Source: a virus. From it: a stretch of 64,000 bases of DNA. Positions 1 to 41,895 of this stretch are shown here, piece by piece. The notes beneath the pieces were generated by a model that was given only the letters and a program-made list of their open reading frames with translations, did no database searches and was not told where the DNA came from. Location: UHGV virus genome UHGV-0170778. One strand, 5' to 3'. The position numbers and the translations under genes were made by a program. Numbering within the stretch: the first letter of the stretch is position 1; each line of letters starts with the position of its first letter.

Positions 1-109
1 TTAACGCTATAAATGAATACATAAATCGTTATAATATAACACGAGACGAATTCATTGATCACATTGAAACCAAAGTAAATACGGGACATATCCCAATAAG
101 GAGAAACAA

Positions 110-10761: not shown

Positions 10762-10774
10762 TAAGGAGGATAAA

Positions 10775-11278: not shown

Positions 11279-11362
11279 TTAACATATAGCATCAGACAGT
11301 GCTGTACACCTAGCTGATGTTAAAATATGAATATTTCAAAAACAGAAAGGAGACATAATATT

Positions 11363-12082: not shown

Positions 12083-12084
12083 AT

Positions 12085-13629: not shown

Positions 13630-13630
13630 T

Positions 13631-24834: not shown

Positions 24835-26829
24835 ATGGCTAAAATAGTCATAAATGAAATTTCACAAAACTATACATACAACATTGGTTCATCTTCTTTT
24901 GCAACTGTTGCATTTCCGATTACAGCTGCTTGGGGACCTGCTTTTGTTGACGAAGAGACTTCTTTCTTTCAGCCTGCATCAAAGGCAGCTGGAAAAACAA
25001 TAGACGATGCATTAGAAAATACTGCATTTATTAGATTCCCTGCAACTCAAGCAGGTCTAGAGGCATTTGTTTCTACTTATCGTGGACCAGAAACAAATTA
25101 TAGAATGACAAAAGATTATTCTTACTACATTGCAATGACTCTGCTTACTGCAGGATATGATGTTCTGGTGTGTCGTGTTTGCCCAGGAACGAAAGCAGAG
25201 GTTTGGTATGATTCAGATAAGCATTCATCTTCTGCAGTAGCTCCCACAAATGGATTGCATATATCTGCAAAATATCCTGGTAGTTTTGGTAATCAACTTT
25301 CTGTAGTTGTTAAAGAAGTGTCTAAAGGTACTGTATCTGTAACTACTGGAGAAGAAGCTCATCAGAAAACAGAAACTAAAGCTGCTCCTGAGGCCTATTG
25401 GAACTTGATTGTATATGCAGAAGATTCATCAGGTACAAGAACAGCAGTTGAGAATCTCTCATTTGTATGTGACGAAACTGATTCAACAGATACATTGCTT
25501 TATGTAGATGAAGTTTCTTCTTCTTTTATAGATATAACTAAAATAGGCAATATAAATGATGAGTTAATGCAGAGTAAAATGAGCACCATTGAACTGTCTG
25601 GCGGAGATGATTATGCAAAGGTCGATGGTTCAGCTACTTCTTCAACTTTATTAGCTGAAGCTGTAAAATACGCAACATATAGATACACTGCTGCATTAGG
25701 TACAGAGATCGGAGCAAATAGTAAATATGTTAAAGCTCTTACAGCTGTAGATGGGTCTAAGACAGATAAATCTAAAGCAAAAGCAATTCGACACAATGAG
25801 TGGGTATATTGTGCAGCTTACACAGTATATGATTTGTTGACAGACAGATTGTCCTACAATCCAAATAGAATTGTTTCTCCTGGTTGGGATGATCAGTGGT
25901 TTGAGTTTTTCGGAAGTAAAGTAGATGAATCTACTGGAATTACAGAAATTTCTCCTTTACATAAGAAATTGATGTATGTAGGATATTACAGCCGTTGCGG
26001 AACTGCATTGATCGACATCCCTCGTTCAGAGCCTAGAAAATTTGTATATAATGATAAAGTAGGCTCTGAAGGATATGCGCAGATGCTTTCAGCGTCCGGT
26101 ACAGCTACAAATGTAGGCATTGAAGGATCTACAGTAGTTGTAGCAGGACTTACAGACAATCTGTATGATACACATTCTGCTTTGTTTGCTCCTTGGGGAC
26201 AATATAAATACGTAGGAACAGGAAAGCAAAACGCTGCTGCTCCGTCATTCTTAGCATTGATGATCCAGAGAGCAATGATTCTAAATCAGTCACTTCAGTA
26301 TGAATGGGCTTTACCTACAAACAGACAGCATAATCTAAAAATCGGCAAACTTGATTACATTGTTAACAACAAACTTCTAAATGAGTGGCAGTCATTAGAA
26401 GGTGTAGGCGTAAATGTAATCACAGATATTCCAGGTTCAGGTACAACATTATGGGGCAACTCTACTCTATATGATGTTCCACCTGCAACATATCAAGCAC
26501 TTGCAAACCTTTCAACTCGTTATCTAGTAAACGCAGTAGAAGATGTAGCTTTCAGATGTGGTATGCAGATTACATTCCGCTACAATAACCAAGAAGCTTA
26601 CAGTTCATTCTATGCAGGATGTACTCCAATTCTAGACACTATGAAGAATGTAGGTGCAATTGAAGATTATTACATTGAGATGTCTGCTGACATTGATAAA
26701 TTATCTTCAGTCAATGCAAATACAGTTGTAGGTAAAATCTATCTAGTCGTAAACGGCGTAATCAATGATATCTACATCGACCTTATCGCATTGCCACAAG
26801 GTACAGATCTGAGTCAGTATAGAAGCTAA
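24835..26829 (+). CDS. tail sheath protein (T4 gp18-like)
   Basis: 664 aa. N-terminal ITAAWGPAF matches gp18 GKFQWGPAF. C-terminal TLWGNSTLYDVPPATYQALANLSTRYLVNAVEDVAFRCGMQITFRYNNQEAYSSF parallels gp18 VLYGDKTATSVPSPFDRINVRRLFNMLKTNIGRSSKYRLFELNNAFTRSSF. AGGAGG RBS. Confidence 0.8.
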   Translation: MAKIVINEISQNYTYNIGSSSFATVAFPITAAWGPAFVDEETSFFQPASKAAGKTIDDALENTAFIRFPATQAGLEAFVSTYRGPETNYRMTKDYSYYIAMTLLTAGYDVLVCRVCPGTKAEVWYDSDKHSSSAVAPTNGLHISAKYPGSFGNQLSVVVKEVSKGTVSVTTGEEAHQKTETKAAPEAYWNLIVYAEDSSGTRTAVENLSFVCDETDSTDTLLYVDEVSSSFIDITKIGNINDELMQSKMSTIELSGGDDYAKVDGSATSSTLLAEAVKYATYRYTAALGTEIGANSKYVKALTAVDGSKTDKSKAKAIRHNEWVYCAAYTVYDLLTDRLSYNPNRIVSPGWDDQWFEFFGSKVDESTGITEISPLHKKLMYVGYYSRCGTALIDIPRSEPRKFVYNDKVGSEGYAQMLSASGTATNVGIEGSTVVVAGLTDNLYDTHSALFAPWGQYKYVGTGKQNAAAPSFLALMIQRAMILNQSLQYEWALPTNRQHNLKIGKLDYIVNNKLLNEWQSLEGVGVNVITDIPGSGTTLWGNSTLYDVPPATYQALANLSTRYLVNAVEDVAFRCGMQITFRYNNQEAYSSFYAGCTPILDTMKNVGAIEDYYIEMSADIDKLSSVNANTVVGKIYLVVNGVINDIYIDLIALPQGTDLSQYRS

Positions 26830-26834: not shown

Positions 26835-26917
26835 TATATATGTTGAAGAGGGACACCGACGGCCATCGTTGCTTTGCTTCCTTGACAAGTTAAGCTAACC
26901 TCTTCAACATACATATA
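26835..26917 (+). other. long imperfect hairpin (16-17 bp stem, ~47-nt GC-richer loop) downstream of the sheath gene
   Basis: ATATATGTTGAAGAGG ... CCTCTTCAACATACATATAT. Possible terminator or structured RNA. Confidence 0.3.
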
Positions 26918-26938: not shown

Positions 26939-27271
26939 ATGAAAATATACGCAAAGCAAGTAAATTCAGATTATCAACTTTTGTATCAACTTTTCTTAGA
27001 TGCACTAGAAGATAAAGTTCGTTCTTATGGTAAAGACATCTTAGATGATATGTTGTCTCCGATTGATCAGTACAACAATTCATTTATAGTAAAAGATGGA
27101 AGATACATACATGTAATTGAGGTAAAACGAGAAGATGGTAGTAGGTTTATCTTAAAGTACTATAAAGAAGACGAATTGAAATATATTGATTATTACAAGT
27201 CAGCAGAAAAGGCAGCTATTGCATGGTACTCAAAAATTGTGTATCCAGAAATATCTAAAAATAGATATTGA
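26939..27271 (+). CDS. hypothetical protein
   Basis: 110 aa; N-terminus MKIY. Confidence 0.35.
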   Translation: MKIYAKQVNSDYQLLYQLFLDALEDKVRSYGKDILDDMLSPIDQYNNSFIVKDGRYIHVIEVKREDGSRFILKYYKEDELKYIDYYKSAEKAAIAWYSKIVYPEISKNRY

Positions 27272-27300
27272 TATGTGTAGACAATAGAAAGTTATGATAT

Positions 27301-27837
27301 ATGGTAATAAACAAAATATTAACTAAAATAAAAATATATGATGTAAATGAATTTGCTCACAAAGTGTATGAGAATTATGAATATTTTAATAAGCTTTGTA
27401 GACAATTAGCGGATGCTTTAGGGTACATGGTAGATGCTAATATCAGATATTCGGACAGTTCTATTGAATTTATACAAGATGACGCAGGAGGGCACCTAAT
27501 CATTAGTATAAATGTTAAATACATTTCAGGGAACAAATATCTGGAGAATTCCACCTATTATAAAGACACAGAGTGTTATGTGGAAAGGATAGGCGATACT
27601 TTTAAGATAATATTCCCATTTGTAAGAATGAATGTAGTACCTGAAAACATACCTCATAGCCAAATTCGAAACTTTAATTTTTTTGTAAATTATTTTGTAG
27701 AGAGTTTTCTTTATTGCTATTTGGGATATAGTTCTTTTACTTTTGATATCTATGACGCATTAGAATCACGTTATGCAGATATTGATCAAAGACGACGAGA
27801 GATAATTAGTTATAAAAATAGATTTATGGAGGAATAA
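27301..27837 (+). CDS. hypothetical protein
   Basis: 178 aa. Confidence 0.35.
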   Translation: MVINKILTKIKIYDVNEFAHKVYENYEYFNKLCRQLADALGYMVDANIRYSDSSIEFIQDDAGGHLIISINVKYISGNKYLENSTYYKDTECYVERIGDTFKIIFPFVRMNVVPENIPHSQIRNFNFFVNYFVESFLYCYLGYSSFTFDIYDALESRYADIDQRRREIISYKNRFMEE

Positions 27838-27839
27838 AA

Positions 27840-28226
27840 ATGAAAATATATATTAAATGTAATAGTTCTGACTTTAAGATTTCTTATAGAGGAAATTACA
27901 ATCTGGATAACAAGCTAGTAAGTAAAGATAAATTCATAAATGATATGAAGAATTTCTTTGCACGTGTTTTACCTGATTTTGGAATCTATTCTGTTATAAT
28001 CAGCAATGCAAAATTGGATATGAATATAACAGACACAGATGTAAAAGGTTTTAATTTTGAAGAAGATGACAGATTAGGTATTTCGTTCAATATTTCTGCA
28101 AACGGTCAAAAATTGAACGTTTCTACAGAATATGTATATGTTGATGATGAATTTGTAAATGCAGATGATATATATGACAGAACAGATGAAGCTCAAGAGA
28201 TAGGAGAATTATTGTCTGGTGAATAA
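27840..28226 (+). CDS. hypothetical protein
   Basis: 128 aa. The MKIYIKCNSSDFKISY N-terminus resembles ORF 58300 (MKIYVRCSNDVEDY). Confidence 0.35.
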   Translation: MKIYIKCNSSDFKISYRGNYNLDNKLVSKDKFINDMKNFFARVLPDFGIYSVIISNAKLDMNITDTDVKGFNFEEDDRLGISFNISANGQKLNVSTEYVYVDDEFVNADDIYDRTDEAQEIGELLSGE

Positions 28227-28276
28227 ATAAATCAAAAAGAGCTATTGTAGCTAAATAAAATAAAGGATTACGCAAA

Positions 28277-28459
28277 ATGAAAATATATACATCTAGATGG
28301 GTAGATAAACCTGGGGAGATGTTAGATTTAGGTAATAAATTAGCTGATTTATTTGTTACTACTAATATACATGAATATCTCAGTGAAGATGAAATGGATC
28401 AGATAGCAGAAGTTTCAGATATGCTAAAAGATGTTGCTAAGTTGATGAAAGAAAAATAA
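28277..28459 (+). CDS. hypothetical protein
   Basis: 60 aa; N-terminus MKIY. Confidence 0.3.
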   Translation: MKIYTSRWVDKPGEMLDLGNKLADLFVTTNIHEYLSEDEMDQIAEVSDMLKDVAKLMKEK

Positions 28460-28485
28460 TTTAGTGTATATAGCCGAATAGCCCA

Positions 28486-28520
28486 AGCAGCAAGACTTTG
28501 ATCTTGCTGCTGTTTCTATA
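28486..28520 (+). terminator. rho-independent terminator (cassette copy 1)
   Basis: AAGCAGCAAGA-CTTTGA-TCTTGCTGCT stem-loop followed by a T-rich run. Confidence 0.55.
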
Positions 28521-28549
28521 TTAAAACATTAAGAAACTATTAAGATCTA

Positions 28550-28578
28550 TTGAAATTAGGTCAATATTTCGTTATAAT
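28550..28578 (+). promoter_or_regulatory. sigma-A-type promoter TTGAAA-17-TATAAT (cassette copy 1)
   Basis: Exact 17-nt spacing, about 50 nt upstream of ORF 28629. Confidence 0.55.
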
Positions 28579-28628
28579 ATGTATGTGTAAAGTAGATAAA
28601 TTGATACACACAGGGAGAAAAATACAAA

Positions 28629-29495
28629 ATGGATACAAATGTTGACTATGAGAATCTGAAAGAAATTACAGTAAACACACAAGAAGAATTAAACAGAATA
28701 CCGCTTGATTTCAAAGGAAGAATTTATGTAGAGTTTGGTACTTATGATAATCCAGCTATTGTTGAGAATGAGTATAGTTTAAGGGTTGTTGCTAGAAAAG
28801 GTTCATGTATAGAAGCTAGAAAAGACGCATATGTTGAGGCTGAAGATAAATCAATGGTTATTGCTCGAGAGGAGTCCAATGCAGTTGCGAATGATAATTC
28901 AAGCATTGAGGCTCGAGATAATTCAAAAGTTTATGCATATAATACTTCAAGAATTGTTGCTTGGGGTCGTTCAAGAGTTTTCTCTGAGGATGATGCAATC
29001 ATTGAAGCTCGAGAGCATTCGACAGTTAAAGCTTGGAAGAGGTCAATCATCGCTGCATATGATAGGTCAACCGTCATTGCTTACAATAAGTCTAGTGTTG
29101 TTGCTTGGGGTAAGTCAAAAGTTCATTCTGAGAATAGATGCAGCGTTGAGACTCATGATCAGTCAAAGGTGACTGCGTTAGGGTATTCAAAAGTTGAGGC
29201 ATATGATCAGTCAACTGTTCAAGCTTATCAACAGTCAGACGTTGTGTCCTATGATAATTCAGTTGTTGTTGCTAAAGAGTCAGCAATCGTTAATTCTTAT
29301 GATAATTCAATCGTTGTTGCTAATGGGCATTCAAGCGTAGAGGCTGAAGGAAAATCATTAGTTACTGCTCATAACAATTCTAGCGTTGTTGCTCGTGACA
29401 ATTCAGACGTTACGGCTATGGATGATTCAACTGTTGAGTCCTATGATAATTCAACTGTTGAGCTTCGCGATAATGCACAGCTGGTCAATGCGTAA
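28629..29495 (+). CDS. decapeptide tandem-repeat protein (predicted beta-solenoid)
   Basis: 288 aa. About 20 consecutive 10-residue units of the pattern x-S-x-V-x-A-x-(D/N/G)-x-S, for example YDNSVVVAKE, SAIVNSYDNS, IVVANGHSSV. GGGAG RBS. Confidence 0.6.
   Translation: MDTNVDYENLKEITVNTQEELNRIPLDFKGRIYVEFGTYDNPAIVENEYSLRVVARKGSCIEARKDAYVEAEDKSMVIAREESNAVANDNSSIEARDNSKVYAYNTSRIVAWGRSRVFSEDDAIIEAREHSTVKAWKRSIIAAYDRSTVIAYNKSSVVAWGKSKVHSENRCSVETHDQSKVTALGYSKVEAYDQSTVQAYQQSDVVSYDNSVVVAKESAIVNSYDNSIVVANGHSSVEAEGKSLVTAHNNSSVVARDNSDVTAMDDSTVESYDNSTVELRDNAQLVNA
28860..29485 (+). repeat. about 20 degenerate in-frame 30-bp tandem repeats, coding
   Basis: The GATAATTCAA(N)GTTGTTGCT(N)... period of 30 nt is visible directly. 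Boundaries approximate. Confidence 0.6.
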
Positions 29496-29542
29496 AGTTT
29501 GTAGGTAAATATATAAGCAGTCAGGACATTATATTTAACAAA

Positions 29543-29577
29543 AGCAGCAAGAAATTGATCTTGCTGCTATTTTTATG
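29543..29577 (+). terminator. rho-independent terminator (cassette copy 2)
   Basis: AGCAGCAAGA-AATTGA-TCTTGCTGCT followed by ATTTTTAT. Confidence 0.6.
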
Positions 29578-29607
29578 TCCAAAATATTAAAAAACTATTA
29601 AGAACAC

Positions 29608-29636
29608 TTGAATTTATATCAATATTTCGTTATAAT
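29608..29636 (+). promoter_or_regulatory. sigma-A-type promoter TTGAAT-17-TATAAT (cassette copy 2)
   Basis: Identical over ~110 nt to copy 3 at 38761-38860. Confidence 0.6.
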
Positions 29637-29670
29637 ATATGTGTAATAAAAGATAGCGGAGGTTAATATT

Positions 29671-29865
29671 ATGTCTACTCTAAAAGAATTATATAAAACA
29701 GAGAAGGGTTTCGACAAAGGTGCAACTCTTTCAGTTTATGAATACTCAGACGGAAGTATACATTATACTTTTCGTGATAGACTTGGAAAACCTTCTAATG
29801 TAGATGGTCACAATGAAGCAGAATTTCTGATTGAAACTTTTAATATGCAGAAACAGAATGCATGA
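29671..29865 (+). CDS. hypothetical protein
   Basis: 64 aa; GGAGG RBS. Confidence 0.4.
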   Translation: MSTLKELYKTEKGFDKGATLSVYEYSDGSIHYTFRDRLGKPSNVDGHNEAEFLIETFNMQKQNA

Positions 29866-29894
29866 AGATTGATTTTTGGAAAGGAGAAAGCACA

Positions 29895-30098
29895 ATGCCA
29901 AGAGTATTGACAGTGGACGGTAGTGTAAAAATCGGAGCATACAGTTTTCCTGATAGGAAAAAGCCCTGTATATGTGTCGAGAAAGGAAACGCTTGTGTTG
30001 TGTACGGCTCTTTCATTGATATTGACCGTGCAAAAGAATTTATGGATGAACTCGCAGCTCTTGTGGGTGCGAGGAATGATAAGGAGGACGAAGAATGA
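29895..30098 (+). CDS. hypothetical protein
   Basis: ATG 29895 follows AAGGAG; the track start is 29862. Confidence 0.35.
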   Translation: MPRVLTVDGSVKIGAYSFPDRKKPCICVEKGNACVVYGSFIDIDRAKEFMDELAALVGARNDKEDEE

Positions 30099-30265
30099 CA
30101 AACTACGAGCGAATAAAAAATATGAGCATTGATGAAATGGCGAACGCCATAAAAAAAGGCCATTTCGGAGACCCGTGTGAGCATTGTTCTTTAAGAAACG
30201 AACCATGTGCATTCTTATGTGTTAAGGGTATTTTAATGTGGCTTAATAGTGGGTTGAAGGAATGA
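30095..30265 (+). CDS. small Cys-containing protein, paralog of ORF 30262
   Basis: 56 aa, below the track cutoff. MTNYERIKNMSIDEMANAI...CEHC...C versus MTNFERIKNMSVDEMASEI...CKEC...C in the next ORF. AGGAGG RBS. Confidence 0.45.
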   Translation: MTNYERIKNMSIDEMANAIKKGHFGDPCEHCSLRNEPCAFLCVKGILMWLNSGLKE

Positions 30266-30453
30266 CGAATTTTGAGCGAATCAAAAATATGAGTGTTGAT
30301 GAAATGGCATCCGAGATTGATAGAATTTCTCATTATTTATGTGATGATTACGGAGGTTACGGATGTAAAGAATGTCCATTTAATTTTTTAGAAAATCGAA
30401 ATTGTAATGCAACAGAATTTGCAAACTGGCTCAATAGTGAGGTAAAAGAATGA
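30262..30453 (+). CDS. small Cys-containing protein, tandem paralog of ORF 30095
   Basis: 63 aa; overlapping stop/start ATGA. Confidence 0.45.
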   Translation: MTNFERIKNMSVDEMASEIDRISHYLCDDYGGYGCKECPFNFLENRNCNATEFANWLNSEVKE

Positions 30454-30821
30454 TAAATAAAACAATGTATGAAAAAGAAAAAGAAATTACTGACAAAATA
30501 GATGCAAAAGAAGCAATAAAAATGTTTCAAAATCTTATATTTGCAGAAAATCATAGAATTGCAGAAAACCATTGTAGAAAACTTGCAATAAAAGCCCTTG
30601 AAAAGCAAACACCACAAAAGCCTATCAAAGAAACGGTAAATCGTGGTATATCAGCATCGGGCGAATATGACATTGATTTTAATTATCTTTGTCCAAATTG
30701 CACGACTGTTGTTGGTGACTATGAAACCAATGATTTTTTTATAAATTTTGCCCCGAGTGTGGTCAAGCATTGGATTGGGGTAAGAGGCCTATTAATTATG
30801 AAATTTATTTTCAAAATCTAA
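30450..30821 (+). CDS. hypothetical protein with CPNC zinc-ribbon-like motif
   Basis: 123 aa. Confidence 0.35.
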   Translation: MINKTMYEKEKEITDKIDAKEAIKMFQNLIFAENHRIAENHCRKLAIKALEKQTPQKPIKETVNRGISASGEYDIDFNYLCPNCTTVVGDYETNDFFINFAPSVVKHWIGVRGLLIMKFIFKI

Positions 30822-30996
30822 CCGCTCTAATGAACAGGTATAACGACGATAATGAAAATTGCATTACATGCAAAGATTGTCTAAATTACGGGCCTTGTGC
30901 AGCCCCATTTAAGTGTGACGATAATACTAGCGTGTATTTCTGTGATGAATTTGTAAACAAAAATTGCAGTGATATTGAGTTAAAGGAGAAAACAAA

Positions 30997-31218
30997 ATGA
31001 GTAATCTCACGCTTAACAACGGCTGGATTAGTGTAAATGACAGACTACCGGACACAAGTAGATATGTGATTGCGTGTTCCGATTTACAAGACGTATTCGA
31101 ATGTTGGTATCGCACCATAGACAAATGTTGGGTAAGACACGGCCATATAGTTGTTGAAAACATTACGCATTGGCGAGAACTACCTGACCCGCCGATAATG
31201 GAGGAGAGCAAAGAATGA
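30997..31218 (+). CDS. DUF551-like phage protein (paralog A)
   Basis: NGWISVNDRLPD...VIACSD...ITHWRELPDPP. Family name is from memory. Confidence 0.45.
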   Translation: MSNLTLNNGWISVNDRLPDTSRYVIACSDLQDVFECWYRTIDKCWVRHGHIVVENITHWRELPDPPIMEESKE

Positions 31219-31540
31219 CTTGTAAAGATTGTCCACATTTTGATGTGTGCAAAATGTATGGTGCATTCCATACAAAGACACGCTGGAAATCATCGGCAAC
31301 ATCCACGATAATCCCGAATTGTTGAAAGGAATAAAAAATGTTTAACTATAAAAAAGCCATACAGAGATATAGAGTTGCTAAAATTTTTGGATTACCTTTT
31401 AAGTTACGCATTAAAGTGTTTTTCAGGGGCAAAGGAACTCCAAAAGAAAATTTTGAAAAAAAGATAATTAATCATAAAAAAGGAGAGCAGGAATGACAGA
31501 TGAAGATGAAATCAATATTGACATCGATTGCTTATAAGCA

Positions 31541-31849
31541 ATGCTTATATATGCAAAACTGGAAAGGAGTAGAAGAATGAACTTAAATTTTGCTGACATT
31601 ATTAAAGACACAAAACTTATTAACCGTTTCTTAAAATGCCACGATGACAGCATTTTAACAGATAACGGTTGGATTAGTGTAAACGACAAACTTCCAAATA
31701 ACGATGAAGACGTAATTGCGCTGTCTGATTCTGGAGATTCACTTGTCTGTCGATATAATAATGATATGAAGCGTTGGGAAAAGTACGGTTTTACATTAGA
31801 TATGAATTTTATTTATTGGAGAGAACTGTACAAATACAGAAAGGATTAA
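31541..31849 (+). CDS. DUF551-like phage protein (paralog B)
   Basis: DNGWISVNDKLPNNDEDVIALSD...FIYWRELYKY, paralogous to ORF 30997. Confidence 0.45.
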   Translation: MLIYAKLERSRRMNLNFADIIKDTKLINRFLKCHDDSILTDNGWISVNDKLPNNDEDVIALSDSGDSLVCRYNNDMKRWEKYGFTLDMNFIYWRELYKYRKD

Positions 31850-31853
31850 GTCA

Positions 31854-32228
31854 ATGACCAACAAAGAAAGAAAACAGACCGGTCTGTTGCATTCAGCAGA
31901 TGAACTGAAACGGCTCATTTTAGAACACCAAGAGTTGCCGATTTTGGTACTTGCCGGAGATAATGCGAACACTGGCGACTATGGCTTTATGAGTTGTAGC
32001 CGTGTACGCGCACAAGAAGGCGAGTTTCTTGATTGTAAGCAGAAAATCGACGCATGCAAGTGCTACACAGATAGGGATGACTTTGAAGACGATGTGGCAG
32101 ATTTTTTGGCTGGTGAAGAACAGTATAGAGATTTGCCGGACGATGAATTTAATGCCCTCGTTGAGCAAACAGTCAATGAGTACGATGATTTTTGGAAGCC
32201 ATGCATTCTATTGCATGTAGACAATTGA
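31854..32228 (+). CDS. hypothetical acidic protein
   Basis: 124 aa. Confidence 0.35.
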   Translation: MTNKERKQTGLLHSADELKRLILEHQELPILVLAGDNANTGDYGFMSCSRVRAQEGEFLDCKQKIDACKCYTDRDDFEDDVADFLAGEEQYRDLPDDEFNALVEQTVNEYDDFWKPCILLHVDN

Positions 32229-32397
32229 GGAGGATTAACTATGATGCTCTCATGTAATCGATTTGCGTTTATTCCACATTTGTGTCTTGAATGCAAACGT
32301 TATATTTGGCTTGAGGGATATAGAAGAGCTGAAGTTTGGAAAAAATCTGTAGATATGAACATCAAAGAAAATATTTGCAAAAGTTGTCTAGAAAAAT

Positions 32398-32610
32398 TTG
32401 ATGTTGGGATTGATAAATGAAAGGAGAAAAATGGCTGACAAATTTGTTATTTGCAATAACGAAGACGAAATAAGATCGAATGAATCATGTTATGGTAATC
32501 AAACATTTGAAATTTCGGCAAAAGATCTTATAGCTCTTTTTGAAGGAAAGACACTTGCTGCAATGGTAAATGATGAATACGGTATATTTATTGAAATAGA
32601 GCCAACTTAG
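32398..32610 (+). CDS. hypothetical protein
   Basis: 70 aa; GGAG RBS. Confidence 0.35.
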   Translation: MMLGLINERRKMADKFVICNNEDEIRSNESCYGNQTFEISAKDLIALFEGKTLAAMVNDEYGIFIEIEPT

Positions 32611-32816
32611 AATCTCAAGGAGAATCAAGCATGAAATTTATAGAGGTAGAAGAATGAAAGCAGGAGCACATAGAAAAAAGTATAAGTATATACCGCCTGA
32701 AAAGAGAGTAAGCAAAAAAGAGCAAGAAAGGATAATGCGTAGGGAGCTTCGTAAAGCTATGCGAAAAGCAAGTCCGTTTTATGCTTGGGTTGAAGATAAT
32801 TGTGAAAGGTATTTTG

Positions 32817-33032
32817 ATGATGAAGTGTGAAAATTGTATTCATTTTGAGCTTTGTCCTGTGTGGGACAAGGATAACAATCGCCCTTATAAAGACGGCTAT
32901 AGTTATTTCTGTCAAAATTACAGTAGATTCATAGATAAATCGCAAATAATCAAGTTACCTATGAAGACAACAGATAAACTGAAAGAAGAATTAACAAAAT
33001 ACTGTTACGAAAGGTGTGTTGATGAGTTATGA
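32817..33032 (+). CDS. small CxxC protein (MKCENCIHFELC family)
   Basis: ATG 32817 follows a GAAAGG SD. Related to MTCKDC(Y/P)H(Y/F)xVCK ORFs at 31216 and 33029. Confidence 0.35.
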   Translation: MMKCENCIHFELCPVWDKDNNRPYKDGYSYFCQNYSRFIDKSQIIKLPMKTTDKLKEELTKYCYERCVDEL

Positions 33033-33430
33033 CTTGCAAAGATTGTTACCACTATGGTGTATGCAAATTTTATAATAAGAATTTACCAGAAGAATATGAC
33101 CATATTGAGTGGCAATGCGACAGTTTCAAGGACAAATCATGCATTGTTGAATTGCCCTGTAAGGCTGGGGAAACAGTATATTGTCTTGATGACATTGTAG
33201 ATAATGAATTATGTGCTGACTGTGAACACTATTATGAGGGTGGTATGGGTGATTATCCGAGTTGTCAAAAAACTCGTTATGGTTTTAGACCTGCAAAATG
33301 TATCGAAATTATCGAGATAGTCGCAGATAATGATTTCGTGTTGAAATATTACAACGAGTTTGGTGAAAAAATATTTCTCACCAAAGAGGAAGCAGAAGCA
33401 AAACTGAAGGAGTTGAACGGAAATGAATAA
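33029..33430 (+). CDS. small CxxC protein (MTCKDCYHYGVCK family)
   Basis: 133 aa with three CxxC pairs. Paralog of the 31216..31326 mini-ORF MTCKDCPHFDVCK. Confidence 0.4.
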   Translation: MTCKDCYHYGVCKFYNKNLPEEYDHIEWQCDSFKDKSCIVELPCKAGETVYCLDDIVDNELCADCEHYYEGGMGDYPSCQKTRYGFRPAKCIEIIEIVADNDFVLKYYNEFGEKIFLTKEEAEAKLKELNGNE

Positions 33431-33629
33431 AGAATTAGCAAGATATTTTGTGAAATTGATTGCGGAAGATTTGCAATTTTCATTCAATGGGATGGGTATT
33501 CCAAGTTATCTTTGTGAATGGTTAGAAAATCAGTTAATACAAGAAAATTATGATGAAGTCGAAGAATTTATAAAGAAAAGATATGACGAACGCGAAAGCA
33601 CAAGAAAGAAAACACGTGATGAAACTTAA
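33423..33629 (+). CDS. hypothetical protein
   Basis: 68 aa. Confidence 0.3.
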   Translation: MNKELARYFVKLIAEDLQFSFNGMGIPSYLCEWLENQLIQENYDEVEEFIKKRYDERESTRKKTRDET

Positions 33630-33667
33630 AATTATTGATAGCTTAAAATCAAGGAGGTAAGTTAGCT

Positions 33668-34129
33668 TTGGAAATAGATGAAATGAAATATTTCCTTAGT
33701 AATGAACTAAGTGAACTTTCAGATATAACAGGGATGTACTTTGATATTCAGTCAGTTGTATATCGAGAAAATTTACATATATGCATTCAAAAATTAAAGT
33801 TAAGGGCATTTCATCAAGATATCTGCTTTGAATGTAAACTAGACATAAACAATGCAATAGCACACTTTGCTTCTTTGATAGCTATGTGCTATGTTATAGA
33901 TGGTGAATATTTATATGAAACAGACAGCTTACTTTATGCTAACCAATTCAAAGCACAAAAATTCGTCATCGAAGTTGTAGATAAGTTCAATGAAATATAC
34001 AACAACTGCAAAGATGTAGAAAAGAGCATAAACGCACTTGAAGCATTTTATGAAACAAACTATGAAGTAAACACACAGGTTGACGATGAAAGATCATTTA
34101 GTATGAGTAAGGATAATAGTGAACTATGA
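33668..34129 (+). CDS. hypothetical protein
   Basis: 153 aa; GGAGG RBS. Confidence 0.35.
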   Translation: MEIDEMKYFLSNELSELSDITGMYFDIQSVVYRENLHICIQKLKLRAFHQDICFECKLDINNAIAHFASLIAMCYVIDGEYLYETDSLLYANQFKAQKFVIEVVDKFNEIYNNCKDVEKSINALEAFYETNYEVNTQVDDERSFSMSKDNSEL

Positions 34130-34241
34130 CACATTAGATGCGTTGTTGTACAGAGTATGTCTACTATATTGCAATGCAAGACTAAAGTATTCATATATGT
34201 ACATAGAAATGACCAGGTAAATTACCTGTTCTGTATTTTTG

Positions 34242-35939: not shown

Positions 35940-36022
35940 ATAATATAACGAAATTCAAAAACGAATTGAAACCTTATATACTCATAGAACAACAAAGTTA
36001 AAAATATAAAGGAGATTTATAT

Positions 36023-36568
36023 ATGTTTACACCATTAGCAATGGGAACAAATCACATGTTAGGCGTAGATTCTTATGTCCCCCTAACAACAAACAACTTT
36101 GAAATTCGAGTGTATAACATGGATGGAAGTGTACCAACAGAATTCTCAGAATTGTTAACATTGAGCACTGATGAAATTGGAGCTATCCAGGAAGAAGAAG
36201 ATCAGATCGTTGTACATTATGGAAATGGTCTAATCAAATTCCCGAGTAAAGTATCTTTCAACGATGTAGACTGGACATTGAATTGCTATTGCTCTCCTAA
36301 TGTTTATGAAAATCTTCGTGCTTGGAGAAAAATGGTTTATGATCCTGATACAGAGAGAATGGGTCTTCCTACGGAGTATATGAAGCAAGTCTATTTCATT
36401 AGATATGATGGCCAAGGAAATTGCAGAGATGTAATTAAGTGTCCAGGCTGCTGGCCAGGAGCTCTCAATAATGGTTCCATGAACCAGACTGGTGGTGAAC
36501 TAGTTAAAGTAAGTTTGCCGCTAGTTATTTCCAGAGTCATCTACTTGAAACCTGAAGATTTTCAGTAA
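36023..36568 (+). CDS. tail tube protein (T4 gp19-like)
   Basis: 181 aa. FEIRVYNMDG, SFNDVDWTLNCY and IKCPGCWPG...ELVKVSLPLVISRVIY parallel gp19 FQVEISYLGQ, FDDWTVTVMN and IKGLWPTN...EVTLALDY. Confidence 0.6.
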   Translation: MFTPLAMGTNHMLGVDSYVPLTTNNFEIRVYNMDGSVPTEFSELLTLSTDEIGAIQEEEDQIVVHYGNGLIKFPSKVSFNDVDWTLNCYCSPNVYENLRAWRKMVYDPDTERMGLPTEYMKQVYFIRYDGQGNCRDVIKCPGCWPGALNNGSMNQTGGELVKVSLPLVISRVIYLKPEDFQ

Positions 36569-36651
36569 TTGAAGTCAAAATTTACAGTCAAGGCAAGCTA
36601 AGGAACATAACCTTTTATCTATTCGTTATATAGATAGGAGGTTATGTTTTT

Positions 36652-38211
36652 ATGATCAAAAAATGTAAGATATGCGGAAAAGAGTTTGAAGCATATGGTA
36701 CTTCTGAATATTGCCCAGGCCCTCACTATAAAAAATGTGCTGTTTGTGGTAAAGAGTTTGAATGGGATAGATTGCATCCTAAGAAATGTTGTTCGAGGAA
36801 ATGTGCAGCAGCTCTTCGACTTTCTACTATATCATCAGAAACAAGAATATGCGAACTTTGTGGGAAAGAATTTCATCCTAATAATAGTACGCAAAAATAC
36901 TGTAAAGATGATCATTACAGACCTTGTCCTGTGTGTGGGAAACCAATTAAAATAACTGAAGACACAAGCATTACTTCTTGTTGTTCTGTTGAATGTAGTA
37001 ATGAGCTTAGAAAGAGGACATGTATTGATAAATATGGAGTTCCTATTGTATCTCAGAATGACGAAATACGACAGAAATTGAGTCAAGCTTCAATAGAATC
37101 AGAAAATAAGAGAAAAGAAACATGTATCAAACGATATGGAGTTGAATTCGCTTCTAAATATTCTGAGGTTAGAAGAAAAATATCGAATACAGTTAAAAGC
37201 AAAGAATGTCAAAGTAGAATTAGAAATACGACACAACACAAGTATGGAGTTCCGTTCGTAATGCAATGCGAAGAAGGATTATCTAGATATAGAAAAACAA
37301 TAGAATCTAAATATGGAGTTCCATATTTTTGTATGACAGATAAATGCAAAGACTCGCAAGGGAAAGTAATTTCGACTCTAAATAAAAGTTTTGGAAACTT
37401 ATTGAGTCAAAATAACATACCATATACATTTGAATACAAGATAGAGAATAGATCGTATGATATTTGCGTCCCTGGATCAAAAACACTGATCGAAATTGAT
37501 CCTACATATACTCATAATGTTATTGGAAATTGTTGGGGACCTGGCTTAGAGATCAATTATCATATAGAGAAGACAAAATTAGCAAATGAATATGGATTCA
37601 GGTGTATTCATATTTGGGATTGGGATGATTGGGATAAGATAATAAATATCATCAGGCCAAAATCCGTCATATATGCTAGAAAATGTAAAATAAGTGTGAT
37701 TGATCGAAAAACAGCAGAATCTTTTGAAATTGATAATCATTTACAAGGCGCTGTAAAAGGACAATCTATTTGCTTAGGTCTATTTTATTGCAATGATCTA
37801 GTACAGGTCATGACTTTCGGTAAACCTAGGTACAATAAAAACTACGATTGGGAACTGCTTAGACTCTGTTCCATTTCTGATTATGCAGTTGTAGGCGGAG
37901 CAGAGAAGCTATGGAAATATTTCATAAGTAGACATGTATCAGATTCAGTTATTTCTTATTGTGATTTGTCTAAATTCAAAGGAGATGTTTACACGAGATT
38001 AGGTATGTCCTTAGACTTTGTAAACGAACCCAATAAAATATGGTCTAAGAAATCTGAAATGATAACCAATAACTTACTCCTTCAACGAGGGTACGATCAA
38101 TTATTCAATACAAATTATGGAAAGGGGACCTCAAACGAAGAATTGATGCTGGAACACGGATGGTTGCCGGTTTATGATTGTGGTCAAGCAAGATATACAT
38201 GGAGTAATTGA
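36652..38211 (+). CDS. Zn-ribbon / Vsr-like homing-endonuclease-like protein with extra C-terminal domain (paralog of 34242..35939)
   Basis: CKICGK, CAVCGK, CELCGK, CPVCGK ribbons. RYGVEFASKYSEVRRK-type repeats. LIEIDPTYTHN...GFRCIHIWDWDDWDKI nuclease core. C-terminal domain collinear with the minus-strand paralog. Confidence 0.55.
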   Translation: MIKKCKICGKEFEAYGTSEYCPGPHYKKCAVCGKEFEWDRLHPKKCCSRKCAAALRLSTISSETRICELCGKEFHPNNSTQKYCKDDHYRPCPVCGKPIKITEDTSITSCCSVECSNELRKRTCIDKYGVPIVSQNDEIRQKLSQASIESENKRKETCIKRYGVEFASKYSEVRRKISNTVKSKECQSRIRNTTQHKYGVPFVMQCEEGLSRYRKTIESKYGVPYFCMTDKCKDSQGKVISTLNKSFGNLLSQNNIPYTFEYKIENRSYDICVPGSKTLIEIDPTYTHNVIGNCWGPGLEINYHIEKTKLANEYGFRCIHIWDWDDWDKIINIIRPKSVIYARKCKISVIDRKTAESFEIDNHLQGAVKGQSICLGLFYCNDLVQVMTFGKPRYNKNYDWELLRLCSISDYAVVGGAEKLWKYFISRHVSDSVISYCDLSKFKGDVYTRLGMSLDFVNEPNKIWSKKSEMITNNLLLQRGYDQLFNTNYGKGTSNEELMLEHGWLPVYDCGQARYTWSN

Positions 38212-38363
38212 TTGTAAATTGCATACTAGTATGATATTTTGAATATGTATGCATGAAATTTAATTCAATGATATGTATAATATATAATACAGTAATTAAA
38301 TAAAAATAGTCATCTAAATATAACCTTATTTACGTGTAAATAAATATTATTAAGGAGTTTATC

Positions 38364-38745: not shown

Positions 38746-38777
38746 GCAGCAAGATCAAATTCTTGCTGCTATTTTTA
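38746..38777 (+). terminator. rho-independent terminator (cassette copy 3)
   Basis: GCAGCAAGA-TCAAAT-TCTTGCTGC followed by TATTTTTAT. Confidence 0.6.
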
Positions 38778-38809
38778 TGTCCAAAATATTAAAAAACTAT
38801 TAAGAACAC

Positions 38810-38838
38810 TTGAATTTATATCAATATTTCGTTATAAT
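38810..38838 (+). promoter_or_regulatory. sigma-A-type promoter TTGAAT-17-TATAAT (cassette copy 3)
   Basis: Identical to copy 2. Confidence 0.6.
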
Positions 38839-38917
38839 ATATGTGTAATAAAAGATAAATAGATGTAATGAGGTGTCACAAAGAACTACAAACCTACCAA
38901 TACAGAAAGGTGTTTAT

Positions 38918-39071
38918 TATGAAGTATTATGTAATATCTTATGAAAACGGAGAAACAAGATACGGTGAATTTGCAGACTATATGAGTGCGTTAAATTATG
39001 CAGAAAGCCGTAACGGAGGTTATGAATTTACGATTGAAGAATATGACAGCGAAGATGATTACTTTTGCTAA
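38918..39071 (+). CDS. hypothetical small acidic protein
   Basis: 51 aa, GAAAGGTG SD; the track start is 38868. Confidence 0.3.
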
Positions 39072-39089
39072 TTGAAAGGAGTATTACAC

Positions 39090-39902
39090 ATGACTAAAAC
39101 AGAATTGAGAGAGGTACTCGATTTGCATCAGAAATGGCTGAATCTTGAAGACGATGGAGTCAGAGCTAATCTGCATGATTGTGATCTAAGTGGTGCTGAC
39201 TTGCAAGGTGTAGATTTAAGTAGGGCTAACCTGCTGAGAGCAAATCTACACGGAGCTGATTTACGAGGAGCATATTTAGGTGGGTGTAACTTGTATGAAG
39301 CTGATCTCAGTTGCGCAGATATGCAAGGAGCTATCTTTCACAATGCTAACTTTACAGGAGCTAACCTTCGAGAATCAAATCTAAGCGGTTCTGATATGTT
39401 TTTAGCTAACTTGAAGAGAGCAAATTTGCAAAAAGCTAATTTAGTAGAAGCAGACCTATTTCAAGCTAACTTGAAGAGAGCAAATTTGCGTGAATCTGAC
39501 TTGCGTGAAGCTAACCTAGTAGGGGCTGACTTACGGGGAGCAGATTTGCGTAGTGCAAGAAATGTACCTTTCATTCCTCTCATTTGTCCGGAAAAGGGTG
39601 AATTTACTTCTTTCATTAGATGTGGTGACTATATTGTAGAACTTTTGATTCCAGCTGACGCTAAACGGTTTTCTGCAACCACAAGAAGATGCTGGGCAAA
39701 TTATGCTAAAGTTCTGTCAATCACAACATTGTCTGGAGACCCTGTCGAAACGATTAGTGTAACAGATACTGAAGTTTCTCCAAACATTGTATACACAGTC
39801 GGAGAATTTGTATATCCGAATTACTTTAGTGATGACCGGTGGGACGAATATTACGGTGGTATCTATTTTTTCATCAATCGACAAGAAGCTGTAAACCATT
39901 GA
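39090..39902 (+). CDS. pentapeptide-repeat protein (Qnr/MfpA-like fold)
   Basis: About 28 consecutive A(D/N)LxX pentapeptides (ANLHDCDLSGADLQGVDLSRANLLRANLHGADLRGAYLGGCNLYEADLSCADMQGA...), followed by a ~120-aa non-repeat C-terminal domain. ATG 39090 follows AAAGGAG. Confidence 0.8.
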   Translation: MTKTELREVLDLHQKWLNLEDDGVRANLHDCDLSGADLQGVDLSRANLLRANLHGADLRGAYLGGCNLYEADLSCADMQGAIFHNANFTGANLRESNLSGSDMFLANLKRANLQKANLVEADLFQANLKRANLRESDLREANLVGADLRGADLRSARNVPFIPLICPEKGEFTSFIRCGDYIVELLIPADAKRFSATTRRCWANYAKVLSITTLSGDPVETISVTDTEVSPNIVYTVGEFVYPNYFSDDRWDEYYGGIYFFINRQEAVNH

Positions 39903-39921
39903 CGAAAAGGAGAAAATAGAT

Positions 39922-40110
39922 ATGAATAAGGAATATCGTTATGGTATGCTACACAGACCTTACGGTATTGGATGTCAACCTAGTAAAGGTCTAATTCTCG
40001 CTTACGGTGAATATCCAAACTTCGGCAAGAAGTATTTCAGTGTATTAGTATACGACAGAAAATTGACTAAGAAAGAAATTGACGAATATGAACTGGAGGA
40101 AATCAAATGA
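39922..40110 (+). CDS. hypothetical protein
   Basis: 62 aa; AAAGGAG RBS. Confidence 0.35.
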   Translation: MNKEYRYGMLHRPYGIGCQPSKGLILAYGEYPNFGKKYFSVLVYDRKLTKKEIDEYELEEIK

Positions 40111-41844: not shown

Positions 41845-41895
41845 GGGTAGGATAAACTTCTAAGGGTTGCGGGGAGTTGTCCTACCCTTTTATAT
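41845..41895 (+). terminator. putative terminator
   Basis: GGGTAGGA...TCCTACCC stem followed by TTTTATATT, between the chaperone and the tape measure. Confidence 0.4.

What the first reader, a model, noticed from the sequence alone, without database searches (positions are those of the whole stretch)
28460..29670. Repeated terminator-plus-promoter cassettes (three copies, two near-identical over ~110 nt) driving repeat-protein genes
Copies at about 28486..28578, 29543..29636 and 38746..38838 each consist of a GCAGCAAGA/TCTTGCTGC hairpin plus T-run, about 30 nt of A-rich spacer, and a TTGAA(T/A)-17-TATAAT promoter. Copies 2 and 3 are identical from the hairpin through AATAAAAGATA. Each is followed about 35-80 nt later by an accessory gene: the decapeptide-repeat protein, the small-ORF island, and the small ORF plus pentapeptide-repeat protein. 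This mirrors the PeSL (promoter-early stem-loop) modules of T4-type phages, which act as recombination hot spots that shuffle early accessory genes. The near-identity of copies 2 and 3 suggests recent cassette-mediated exchange.
Basis: seen in the sequence. Interest (0 to 1): 0.65.

Follow-up and report, generated by a model that had tools for sequence, protein, structure and literature searches.

The report
Repeated terminator-promoter cassettes in gut phage
A roughly 115-base terminator-plus-promoter unit is repeated inside the tail-gene cluster of an uncultured, distantly T4-like gut phage, where it most likely switches on small accessory genes and also serves as a site where gene blocks are swapped, much like the PeSL cassettes of T4-type phages.

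Summary
Three direct copies sit at 28486-28605, 29543-29655 and 38746-38865. Each has an invariant 9-10 bp hairpin with a T-run, an A/T-rich stretch, a TTGAA(A/T)-17-TATAAT promoter and a short conserved leader. Copies 2 and 3 are identical over 97 nt.

The window is a ~119 kb metagenomic myovirus with a T4-like core (portal, gp23, prohead protease, gp13) and no close GenBank relative. The cassettes lie between tail sheath and tail tube and after the tube module. They head islands of small ORFs and beta-solenoid repeat proteins.

In about 20 related contigs the cassettes are conserved but the genes around them differ widely. Copies B and C are identical within each of three genomes yet differ between genomes. 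Cassette halves occur in all combinations. One genome looks like a deletion between two direct cassettes.

This supports a PeSL-like reading by analogy, not homology. Three caveats apply:
- Promoter and terminator activity are inferred from sequence only.
- Only about 5% of synteny breakpoints fall in cassettes, so they are not the main driver of mosaicism.
- The 288-aa protein has octapeptide repeats, not decapeptide repeats.

It is a new member of a known kind, of moderate interest.

The parts
28486..28605 (+). Cassette A. Hairpin 28486-28511 (10-bp stem, loop CTTTGA), T-rich tail GTTTCTATATT, A/T-rich stretch, -35 TTGAAA 28550-28555, -10 TATAAT 28573-28578, and a conserved leader to about 28605.
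   Evidence: conserved at the same site in L004, L024, L050 and L097-L104
29543..29655 (+). Cassette B. Hairpin 29543-29568 (loop AATTGA), tail ATTTTTATGT, A/T-rich stretch, -35 TTGAAT 29608-29613, -10 29631-29636, leader to 29655. Positions 29559-29655 are identical to cassette C.
38746..38865 (+). Cassette C. Hairpin 38746-38769 (loop TCAAAT, close to the reverse complement of the A and B loops), tail, -35 38810-38815, -10 38833-38838, leader. Homology to relatives breaks at 38865.
28629..29495 (+). 288-aa octapeptide-repeat beta-solenoid protein, bracketed by promoter A and terminator B in a moron-like unit.
   Evidence: phrog_15773; pLDDT 88.5; no PDB relative
29671..34129 (+). Island of about 17 small + strand ORFs headed by promoter B. 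Its content is mosaic and differs in every related genome. Only DUF551 is recognisable.
38919..40110 (+). First genes headed by promoter C: a 50-aa ORF (a variable allele), the pentapeptide-repeat + DUF5758 protein (39090-39902), and a DarA_C-like 62-aa protein (39922-40110).
24835..26829 (+). Tail sheath gene, the conserved left anchor of the sheath-tube hypervariable gap.
   Evidence: phrog_23
36023..36568 (+). Tail tube gene, the conserved right anchor. It is 100% identical in many contigs that have different islands.
   Evidence: (phrog_4542)
34214..34228 (.). Terminator-like hairpin, flagged on both strands, between the end of island B (+) and the convergent HNH gene (-).
41845..41893 (+). 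Strong hairpin (GGGTAGGA...TCCTACCC) plus TTTTAT that closes the gene block after cassette C, just before the 992-aa tape-measure-sized gene.
35970..35982 (+). AACCTTATATA motif 52 nt upstream of the tube gene, one of about 11 AACCTT(A/T)3-4 sites lying 30-90 nt upstream of mostly structural genes. It is a candidate phage late promoter that would restart late transcription after the island.
36576..38328 (+). Insertion carrying an HNH (DUF7487) homing-endonuclease gene between the tube and the 122-aa gene. It is absent from L002 and L006, lies about 0.4 kb upstream of cassette C, and carries a degenerate sigma70-like site at 38253-38281.

Best explanation
Each copy is a composite regulatory cassette with two working parts. 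An intrinsic terminator (hairpin plus T-run) ends transcription coming from the preceding, mostly structural, genes. A strong host-type (sigma70/sigmaA) promoter with an A/T-rich upstream region then starts transcription of an accessory-gene block inserted in the tail-gene cluster of a distantly T4-like gut myovirus. These accessory genes are beta-solenoid repeat proteins, a DarA_C-like protein and many ORFans, and relatives also carry Tad8-like genes. They are probably expressed early or independently of the late programme.

Because about 100 nt of the cassette is nearly identical at several sites in direct orientation, the phage's homologous recombination uses the copies as portable homology. 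A RecA/UvsX-like gene is present to support this. The outcome is gene conversion between copies, deletion or insertion of the blocks between them, and replacement of the block downstream of a cassette.

Shown here: the repeat and its anatomy, its conservation, the variable gene content around it, concerted evolution, and chimeric copies. Inferred: terminator and promoter activity, early timing, and the recombination mechanism.
For: Promoter evidence. The three cassettes are the only intergenic TTGnnn-16..18-TATAAT sites on the + strand in 64 kb; the other two hits lie inside coding regions.

Terminator evidence.
- The stems are invariant in most copies while the loops vary freely and even invert.
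- One cassette (L064) has a different hairpin, AGCTCGC/GCGGGCT, at the same position before the same TATTTTTAT tail.

Context. The cassettes lie between sheath and tube and after the tube module. The contig has Portal_T4, Gp23, Peptidase_S77 and T4 gp13 domains, and relatives carry a RecA_N protein. Candidate late-promoter motifs follow each island, and terminator-like hairpins close the islands.

Recombination evidence.
- B and C differ at 0 of 67 positions within the window, within L004 and within the UMEG assembly, but at 1-3 positions between genomes at the same site.
- The GATCGGTTAAAGATTAAG leader module sits behind both alpha-type and beta-type cassette 5' halves in several independent assemblies. 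Tail type and leader type occur in all four combinations, which is a four-gamete signal.
- L004 joins the upstream context of site B to the downstream context of the internal cassette B2 of the L005/L097 type. This is what a deletion between two direct cassettes would produce.
- In L096 a junction falls inside the cassette core.
- At least five different genes directly follow cassette B across genomes.
- The genes flanking different copies are unrelated, so the copies are not leftovers of a segmental duplication.
Against: There is no transcript or reporter data.
- The T-run of copy A is weak (GTTTCTAT).
- Only 13 of 266 distinct synteny breakpoints fall in cassettes, about 5% against about 2% of the length. 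Most shuffling inside the islands happens at cassette-free gene boundaries.
- Cassette B is the left anchor of a variable island, so junctions at its 3' edge are expected whatever the mechanism. The cassette-free right anchor, upstream of the 153-aa gene, has just as many alternatives.
- All sequences are short-read metagenome assemblies, and a de Bruijn assembler could homogenise near-identical repeats, which would inflate the B = C identity.
- The near-invariance of the 17-mer CAATATTTCGTTATAAT, which includes half of the spacer, is stronger than a plain sigma70 promoter needs and is not explained.
Confidence: 0.75

Rival explanations
1. The cassettes are ordinary paralogous regulatory regions kept similar only by selection for a strong promoter and terminator. 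The mosaicism around them comes from general illegitimate recombination and from repair of homing-endonuclease cuts, with no special role for the cassettes as recombination substrates.
For: Breakpoints are only about 2.5-fold enriched in cassettes, and most junctions are cassette-free. The cassette-free boundary upstream of the 153-aa gene is as polymorphic as the 3' edge of cassette B. The region is dense in mobile genes: HNH/DUF7487, GIY-YIG and TnpB, and HNH genes lie about 0.4-0.7 kb upstream of cassettes A (L004), C (window) and directly upstream of D.
Against: Selection alone does not explain why genome-specific variants are shared by B and C within a genome. It also does not explain the four-gamete pattern of cassette halves or the B x B2 fusion in L004.
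Confidence: 0.17
2. The hairpin and the invariant 17-mer form a specific recognition site for a dedicated enzyme, such as a nuclease, a resolvase or an integron-like recombinase acting on the extruded hairpin. Under this reading the cassette is a site-specific gene-capture platform rather than passive homology.
For: The 17-mer is identical in nearly all hairpin-associated copies while the neighbouring spacer and -35 positions vary. Hairpin loops flip to their exact reverse complement at orthologous sites (site A CTTTGA vs TCAAAG; site C TTCAAT vs ATTGAA), which shows that the DNA hairpin is prone to rearrangement. At site D an HNH gene ends exactly where the hairpin should be.
Against: No integrase or recombinase was seen near the cassettes. 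Most genes in the islands are not individually flanked by hairpins. Junctions fall at different places within the cassette: the 5' edge, the core, just after the -10, and 20 nt into the leader. That pattern fits homologous exchange rather than a fixed cleavage site. Loop inversion is a known outcome of replication template switching at perfect hairpins (PMC8794818).
Confidence: 0.05
3. The near-identity of copies and the chimeric arrangements are artefacts of short-read metagenome assembly, caused by repeat collapse or by switching between strains or sites at a shared 100-nt repeat.
For: Many contigs end exactly in a cassette: L006, L009, L010, L014, L024, L064, L081 and L095. This shows that assemblers struggle at these repeats.
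Against: The same architectures recur in independent samples and assemblers: L005 matches L008, L002 resembles L006, L097 matches L098, and the window matches L011 and L082. Copies A and D stay distinct from B and C within the same assembly. The repeat, at most 116 nt, is shorter than typical reads and shorter than the final k of the k119/k141 assemblies.
Confidence: 0.03

Closest known systems
PeSL (promoter-early stem-loop) cassettes of T4-type phages (Arbiol et al. 2010, PMC2839356; Comeau et al. 2014, PMC4122927)
   Same: Both are composite intergenic units of a sigma70-like promoter, an A/T-rich upstream region and a stem-loop terminator, conserved over about 100 bp and present in several direct copies. 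Both sit in hyperplastic regions full of ORFans between conserved core genes, are associated with indels and replacements between close relatives, and show chimeric copies consistent with recombination between cassettes. Both are proposed to insulate late virion genes from early accessory transcription.
   Different: There is no sequence homology: the stems here are GCAGCAAGA/TCTTGCTGC, whereas T4-type PeSLs typically have GGGG...CCCC stems. Here the hairpin always lies upstream of the promoter, while T4 PeSL stem-loops often lie between or over the -35 and -10. The host phage is not a member of the T4 subfamily described in those papers (its capsid protein is at most 29% identical to any GenBank phage) and probably infects a Gram-positive gut bacterium. 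There are few copies per island (2-4), not eight in 5 kb. Mini-circles and activity were not tested.
Morons of lambdoid/HK97-like phages (Juhala/Hendrix concept; discussed in PMC2839356)
   Same: The 288-aa gene with its own promoter (A) and a terminator behind it (hairpin B), inserted between genes of the tail cluster, has the classic moron layout.
   Different: Morons are not thought to move through conserved flanking regulatory sequences, whereas here the flanking elements are near-identical repeats showing conversion and chimeras. No base-composition anomaly is seen (GC about 0.34 throughout). This phage looks lytic, so prophage expression is not at issue.
Integron gene cassettes with attC hairpins
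   Same: Both involve hairpin-forming repeats bordering exchangeable gene blocks behind a promoter.
   Different: No integrase was seen. The hairpins here are perfect short stems followed by T-runs, which marks them as terminators. Most genes in the islands lack their own hairpin. Junction positions vary within the cassette.
Loop inversions at perfect hairpins by replication template switching (PMC8794818; also known from chloroplast non-coding hairpins, from my own knowledge)
   Same: The 6-nt loops flip to their exact reverse complement while the stems stay unchanged, at orthologous sites A and C.
   Different: Here it is seen in a phage terminator repeat family, and it is combined with copying of loops between paralogous sites.

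Membership tests
PeSL cassettes (T4-type phages) | Strong sigma70-like promoter (-35, -10) with an A/T-rich region upstream | tested here: met
   TTGAA(A/T)-17-TATAAT scores 10-11 of 12, with 24-25 A/T in the 30 nt upstream. These are the only intergenic sites of this type in the window.
PeSL cassettes (T4-type phages) | Adjacent stable stem-loop able to act as terminator or attenuator | tested here: met
   9-10 bp stems, -15.7 to -18.3 kcal/mol, z below -4, followed by a T-run. This rests on structure and sequence only.
PeSL cassettes (T4-type phages) | [quoted passage not shown] | tested here: met
   Three copies in the window, a fourth in the same contig, and more in related contigs.
PeSL cassettes (T4-type phages) | Concentration in hyperplastic regions, and association with indels or replacements between close relatives | tested here: met
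   The sheath-tube gap and the post-tube block are hypervariable among contigs that are 95-100% identical in flanking core genes. However, only about 5% of breakpoints lie in cassettes.
PeSL cassettes (T4-type phages) | Recombination between copies: chimeric cassettes, deletions, mini-circles | tested here: inconclusive
   Comparative signals are positive: concerted evolution, the four-gamete pattern and the B x B2 fusion. Mini-circles and direct recombinants cannot be tested with these tools, and all data are assemblies.
PeSL cassettes (T4-type phages) | Measured promoter and terminator activity | not testable with these tools
   No expression data are available. Rfam gives no hit.
PeSL cassettes (T4-type phages) | Host genome is a T4-like phage of the subfamily described in the PeSL papers, and the cassette shares sequence with known PeSLs | tested here: not met
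   T4-like core domains are present (Portal_T4, Gp23, Peptidase_S77, gp13). However, the capsid protein is at most 29% identical to any GenBank phage, the nearest being Bacillus, Streptococcus and Listeria myoviruses. The sheath has no tblastn hit. The stems are unlike the GGGG/CCCC PeSL stems. This is therefore an analogue, not a homologous member.
Moron | A gene with its own promoter and terminator inserted between genes of a conserved late operon | tested here: met
   Promoter A, the 288-aa gene and hairpin B lie between sheath and tube.
Moron | Acquisition independent of conserved flanking sequences; often a deviant base composition | tested here: not met
   The flanks are near-identical repeats, and GC is uniform.
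Integron cassette array | An integrase, plus an attC-type imperfect hairpin at the end of every cassette | tested here: not met
   No integrase appears among the called genes or Pfam hits of the loci. Most island genes lack a hairpin.

The most novel reading that the evidence does not exclude
The cassette may be more than passive homology. The near-invariant 17-mer and the flip-prone perfect hairpin could form a recognition or initiation site: a cruciform or hairpin cut by one of the phage's many HNH/GIY-YIG nucleases or by a resolvase. That would actively target double-strand breaks, and so gene capture and loss, to these points. The sheath-tube gap would then be an integrase-free, integron-like acquisition platform for early-expressed counter-defence genes in a lytic gut phage.
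Probability: 0.1. Interest if true: 0.75.

Novelty: new member of a known kind. Interest (0 to 1): 0.45.

Why it matters
PeSL-type mobile regulatory cassettes have, in the papers found here, been described almost only for T4-like phages of Gram-negative hosts. Finding a non-homologous but architecturally equivalent system in an uncultured human-gut myovirus that is only remotely T4-like suggests the design has arisen more than once. The design has two parts: accessory genes are insulated and switched on by a portable terminator-promoter unit, and that same unit serves as recombination homology. It also marks the sheath-tube gap of this abundant gut phage lineage as a fast-turnover locus. That locus carries likely counter-defence genes (DarA_C-like, Tad8-like, pentapeptide and octapeptide solenoids), which makes it a practical place to look for new anti-defence functions. 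Finally, it gives precise, testable coordinates for transcript starts, transcript ends and recombination products.

Tried and rejected
- Megablast of 27000-31000 and tblastn of the sheath against GenBank phages found nothing. Only the gp23-like capsid protein found distant relatives.
- An IMG/VR scan for the 20-mer gave one unrelated giant-virus contig.
- A genome-contig scan for the 19-mer gave seven hits, all without cassette context, so they are chance matches and give no host or prophage clue.
- Most of the 61 metagenome hits to the 18-mer were also chance. About ten belong to this phage group.
- Rfam found no family in the window.
- Segmental duplication of "cassette + gene" is rejected. 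The flanking genes of different copies are unrelated, and the two pentapeptide proteins share only generic repeat similarity.
- I first labelled the L002/L005 cassette as the orthologue of site A. The longer loci showed it is an extra internal cassette, B2.
- I tested whether the 166-aa gene after the 288-aa gene in L004 encodes the missing DUF7666 domain. It does not.
- A Foldseek search of the PDB with the solenoid model gave no significant match.
- PHROG and Pfam scans of the island ORFs and of the L064 genes gave almost nothing.
- MITE or transposon ends are rejected: there are no terminal inverted repeats beyond the hairpin and no target duplications in the alignments.
Full report
OBSERVATION. 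The repeat is real and sits at the stated coordinates. The pattern GCAGCAAGA-N6-TCTTGCTGC occurs exactly three times in 64 kb, at 28487-28510, 29544-29567 and 38746-38769, all on the + strand. None of 100 shuffles gave a match. The 20-mer TCAATATTTCGTTATAATAT also occurs three times, against 0.03 expected. The promoter scan ranks the three sites among the best sigma70-type matches: TTGAAA-17-TATAAT ending at 28578, and TTGAAT-17-TATAAT ending at 29636 and 38838. My own scan for TTGnnn-16..18-TATAAT found five + strand sites in the window. The three cassettes are the only intergenic ones, and each has an A/T-rich 30 nt upstream. The hairpins fold at -15.7 to -18.3 kcal/mol with z-scores of -4.2 to -5.3, and each is followed by a T-rich tail. 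Copies B and C are identical over 29559-29655 = 38761-38857 (97 nt), and the identity stops exactly at those limits. Copy A is about 84% identical to them.

There are two corrections to the finding. First, the 288-aa protein downstream of copy A has an 8-residue period, not 10. Its DNA repeats are spaced 24/48 nt, and the translation and the AlphaFold model, with one strand every 8 residues, agree. Second, three is only the count inside the window.

WHAT THE GENOME IS. The window is 100% identical to ENA contig ERZ1307801 NODE_54 (118,880 bp). It is about 33% GC, and nearly all genes are on the + strand. The cassettes sit inside the tail-gene cluster. The tail sheath is at 24835-26829 and the tail tube at 36023-36568, with 9.2 kb of small ORFs between them. 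In T4 the sheath and tube genes are adjacent (established knowledge). Precomputed Pfam hits on the same contig show Portal_T4, Gp23, Peptidase_S77 and T4 gp13. Relatives carry a RecA_N protein, a DnaB-type helicase, a split family-A DNA polymerase and a full 7-deazaguanine pathway. No close GenBank phage exists. The gp23-like capsid protein is at most 29% identical to those of Bacillus, Streptococcus and Listeria myoviruses. Strong Shine-Dalgarno sites, CHAP/M23 lysin domains and a dockerin domain point to a Gram-positive gut host. That host assignment is an inference.

ANATOMY AND LIKELY FUNCTION. Each unit begins 13-48 nt after the stop codon of the upstream gene. It consists of:
- a 9-10 bp hairpin;
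- a T-rich tail, in two types: alpha CTGTTTCTATA and beta CTATTTTTATGTCC;
- an A/T-rich stretch (AAAATATTAAGAAACTATTAAGA);
- a -35 element, a 17-nt spacer and a TATAAT -10;
- a 20-40 nt leader that comes in a few types.

The terminator reading rests on four points:
- the position of the hairpin and the T-run after it;
- invariant stems combined with freely varying loops, which even invert;
- a G-to-wobble change in one copy (L024);
- a cassette in L064 with a different hairpin (AGCTCGC/GCGGGCT) at the same place before the same tail.

The islands are closed downstream by other terminator-like hairpins (34214-34228 and 41845-41893). The structural genes after each island are preceded by a different motif, AACCTT(A/T)3-4, found at about 11 sites 30-90 nt upstream of start codons. 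These include the tube, the 122-aa gene and the tape-measure-sized gene. This motif is a candidate late promoter.

The most economical model is that late transcription units end at the cassette hairpins and restart at their own promoters, while the accessory blocks are read by unmodified host polymerase from the cassette promoters. None of this has been measured.

COMPARATIVE EVIDENCE. Exact-protein look-ups and a metagenome pattern scan retrieved about 20 distinct related contigs from independent gut samples. The cassettes are present in all of them at the same framework positions: sheath - 106/110-aa gene - (variable genes) - 60-aa gene - A - 288-aa gene - (optional gene) - B - island - 153-aa gene - HNH - tube - (HNH) - 122-aa gene - C. 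A fourth site, D, has the promoter half only, and an HNH gene ends where its hairpin should be. It lies between gp23 and gp13, about 2.2 kb beyond the window's right end, and heads an 86-aa ORF and another pentapeptide protein. Longer islands carry an extra internal cassette, B2 (L002, L005, L006, L097, L098). Contigs L020 and L064 carry copies in regions not seen here.

Gene content around the cassettes differs in almost every genome, although the core genes are 95-100% identical. At least five different genes directly follow cassette B. Three different genes precede A. Two alleles follow C, with the switch 20 nt into the leader at 38865.

EVIDENCE THAT THE COPIES RECOMBINE.
(i) Concerted evolution. 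Over the 67 nt from the tail to the -10, B and C differ at 0 positions within the window, within L004 and within the UMEG assembly. The same site differs at 1-3 positions between those genomes.
(ii) Reassortment of halves. The alpha and beta tails occur with the A-type, C-type and GATCGGTT-type leaders in all four informative combinations. The GATCGGTT leader with its gene block sits behind site B in L004, L012 and L103, and behind B2 in L002, L005, L006 and L097.
(iii) Deletion signature. L004 joins the upstream context of B directly to the downstream context of B2 (the 136-aa gene). This is the product expected from an exchange between two direct cassettes in an L005/L097-like genome.
(iv) Junction inside the core. 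In L096, homology to cassette A starts only at ATATTTCGTTATAAT, and the hairpin, the A/T-rich stretch and the -35 are gone.
(v) Unrelated flanks. Genes flanking different copies are unrelated, so uniform decay of a segmental duplication cannot explain copies that are 85-100% identical.
(vi) Loop flips. The loops flip to their exact reverse complement at orthologous sites: A has CTTTGA in the window and L004 against TCAAAG in L050, L100, L103 and L104; C has TTCAAT in L004 against ATTGAA in L010. This is the known signature of template switching at a perfect hairpin (PMC8794818) and shows the DNA hairpin is active in replication or recombination.

LIMITS. A census of synteny breakpoints (HSPs of at least 200 nt and at least 85% identity, all genome pairs) puts 13 of 266 distinct breakpoints in cassettes, about 5% against about 2% of the sequence. 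The cassettes are therefore recurrent junctions, but most shuffling inside the islands occurs at ordinary gene boundaries. The cassette-free right anchor of the island is as polymorphic as the 3' edge of cassette B. Homing endonucleases (HNH/DUF7487, GIY-YIG) and TnpB insertions are abundant nearby and may supply the breaks. All data are short-read assemblies, and many contigs end inside a cassette. Repeat homogenisation by assemblers therefore has to be excluded at read level, although the same architectures recur in independent samples and copies A and D remain distinct. The near-invariance of the 17-mer CAATATTTCGTTATAAT is stronger than a plain promoter requires and remains unexplained. 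The only exceptions seen are TCTAAT in L102 and a truncated copy in L096.

COMPARISON WITH KNOWN SYSTEMS. PeSLs are described as sigma70-like promoters with an A/T-rich upstream region and a stem-loop terminator, conserved over about 100 bp, concentrated in hyperplastic regions, associated with ORFan indels between close relatives, and recombining with one another (PMC2839356; PMC4122927). The cassettes here meet the anatomical, positional and comparative criteria. They do not meet the taxonomic or sequence criteria: the host genome is not a T4-subfamily phage, the stems are unrelated, and the hairpin always lies upstream of the promoter. Activity and mini-circles could not be tested. I therefore file them as a functional analogue, that is, a new and independently derived member of the PeSL kind of element, not as a homologous PeSL. 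The A-288aa-B unit also has the layout of a moron, but morons are not defined by repeated flanks. An integron-like reading fails because there is no integrase and no per-gene hairpin.

THE GENES DRIVEN.
- Cassette A heads a 288-aa octapeptide beta-solenoid (pLDDT 88.5). It has no PDB relative, and its homologues usually carry a C-terminal DUF7666 domain that this copy lacks.
- Cassette B heads ORFans plus a DUF551 protein.
- Cassette C heads a 50-aa ORF, a pentapeptide-repeat + DUF5758 protein and a DarA_C-like protein.
- Relatives carry Tad8-like genes and further pentapeptide proteins in the same islands.

A counter-defence or host-takeover role is plausible but inferred.

VERDICT. It is a new member of a known kind and of moderate interest.

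Noticed in passing
window 28487-28510, 38746-38769; L050, L100, L103, L104 (site A); L004 and L010 (site C): The 6-nt hairpin loops invert to their exact reverse complement at orthologous sites while the stems stay unchanged (CTTTGA vs TCAAAG; TTCAAT vs ATTGAA). Loops are also shared between paralogous sites within a genome; in L103, A and B are both TCAAAG.
   Followed up: partly
window 9233, 14352, 16089, 20911, 24577, 35970, 36609, 38322, 40308, 41884, 58814: The motif AACCTT(A/T)3-4 (for example AACCTTAAATA, AACCTTATATA) lies 30-90 nt upstream of many, mostly structural, genes. It is a candidate late promoter and resembles the T4 late TATAAATA box. Overall enrichment is modest: 16 matches against 8.9 expected for ACCTTWWWT.
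   Followed up: partly
window 28629-29495: The 288-aa protein is an octapeptide-repeat beta-solenoid of about 26 turns (AF2 pLDDT 88.5) with no significant PDB match. Its metagenomic homologues usually end in a DUF7666 domain that is missing here.
   Followed up: partly
window 36576-38328, 34242-35939 (-); L004 487-2499; L073 12993-14606: Free-standing HNH (DUF7487) homing-endonuclease genes are present or absent between genomes: after the sheath, on both sides of the tube, and after gp23. The 36576-38328 insertion is absent from L002 and L006.
   Followed up: partly
L004 14698-15951; L005 8658-9911: TnpB/OrfB_IS605 (Cas12f-like) genes are inserted in the tail cluster of some relatives, in L005 directly upstream of the tube gene.
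   Followed up: no
window 2005-4365; L076-L079: The clamp-loader-like gene is 786 aa here but 493 aa in L077. Relatives show intein or LAGLIDADG hits, so the window copy probably carries an intein. In relatives the family-A DNA polymerase is split, in some of them by a GIY-YIG gene.
   Followed up: no
window 9325-14314: A complete 7-deazaguanine (queuosine-precursor) gene set is present: Vut_1-like, a short-chain dehydrogenase, QueF, QueC, a phosphoribosyl transferase, QueD, QueE and a GTP cyclohydrolase. This suggests modified DNA.
   Followed up: partly
window 26835-26915: A long inverted repeat (ATATATGTTGAAGAGG ... CCTCTTCAACATACATATATAT, -26 kcal/mol) lies just after the sheath gene. The 670-aa HNH gene of L004, L103, L104 and L105 is inserted at about 26919.
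   Followed up: no
window 59403-60536: A 377-aa protein in the structural region has a Dockerin_1 hit (precomputed Pfam), which is unusual for a phage and a possible clue to a cellulosome-bearing clostridial host.
   Followed up: no
window 62804-64000: The start of the gp23-like capsid gene is markedly richer in G+C (0.40 against about 0.33) than the rest of the window.
   Followed up: no
window 30093-30141 / 30260-30308 and 31018-31084 / 31664-31730: Adjacent small ORFs inside island B are paralogous pairs (86% and 70% DNA identity; one pair is DUF551-like), so the island also grows by local tandem duplication.
   Followed up: no
window 26-35; L073 12948-12965; window 36622-36634: The string TCGTTATAAT, or TCGTTATATAG, recurs outside the cassettes upstream of the 370-aa gene and of two HNH genes, without a -35. 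It may be a phage-specific promoter element shared with the cassette core.
   Followed up: no
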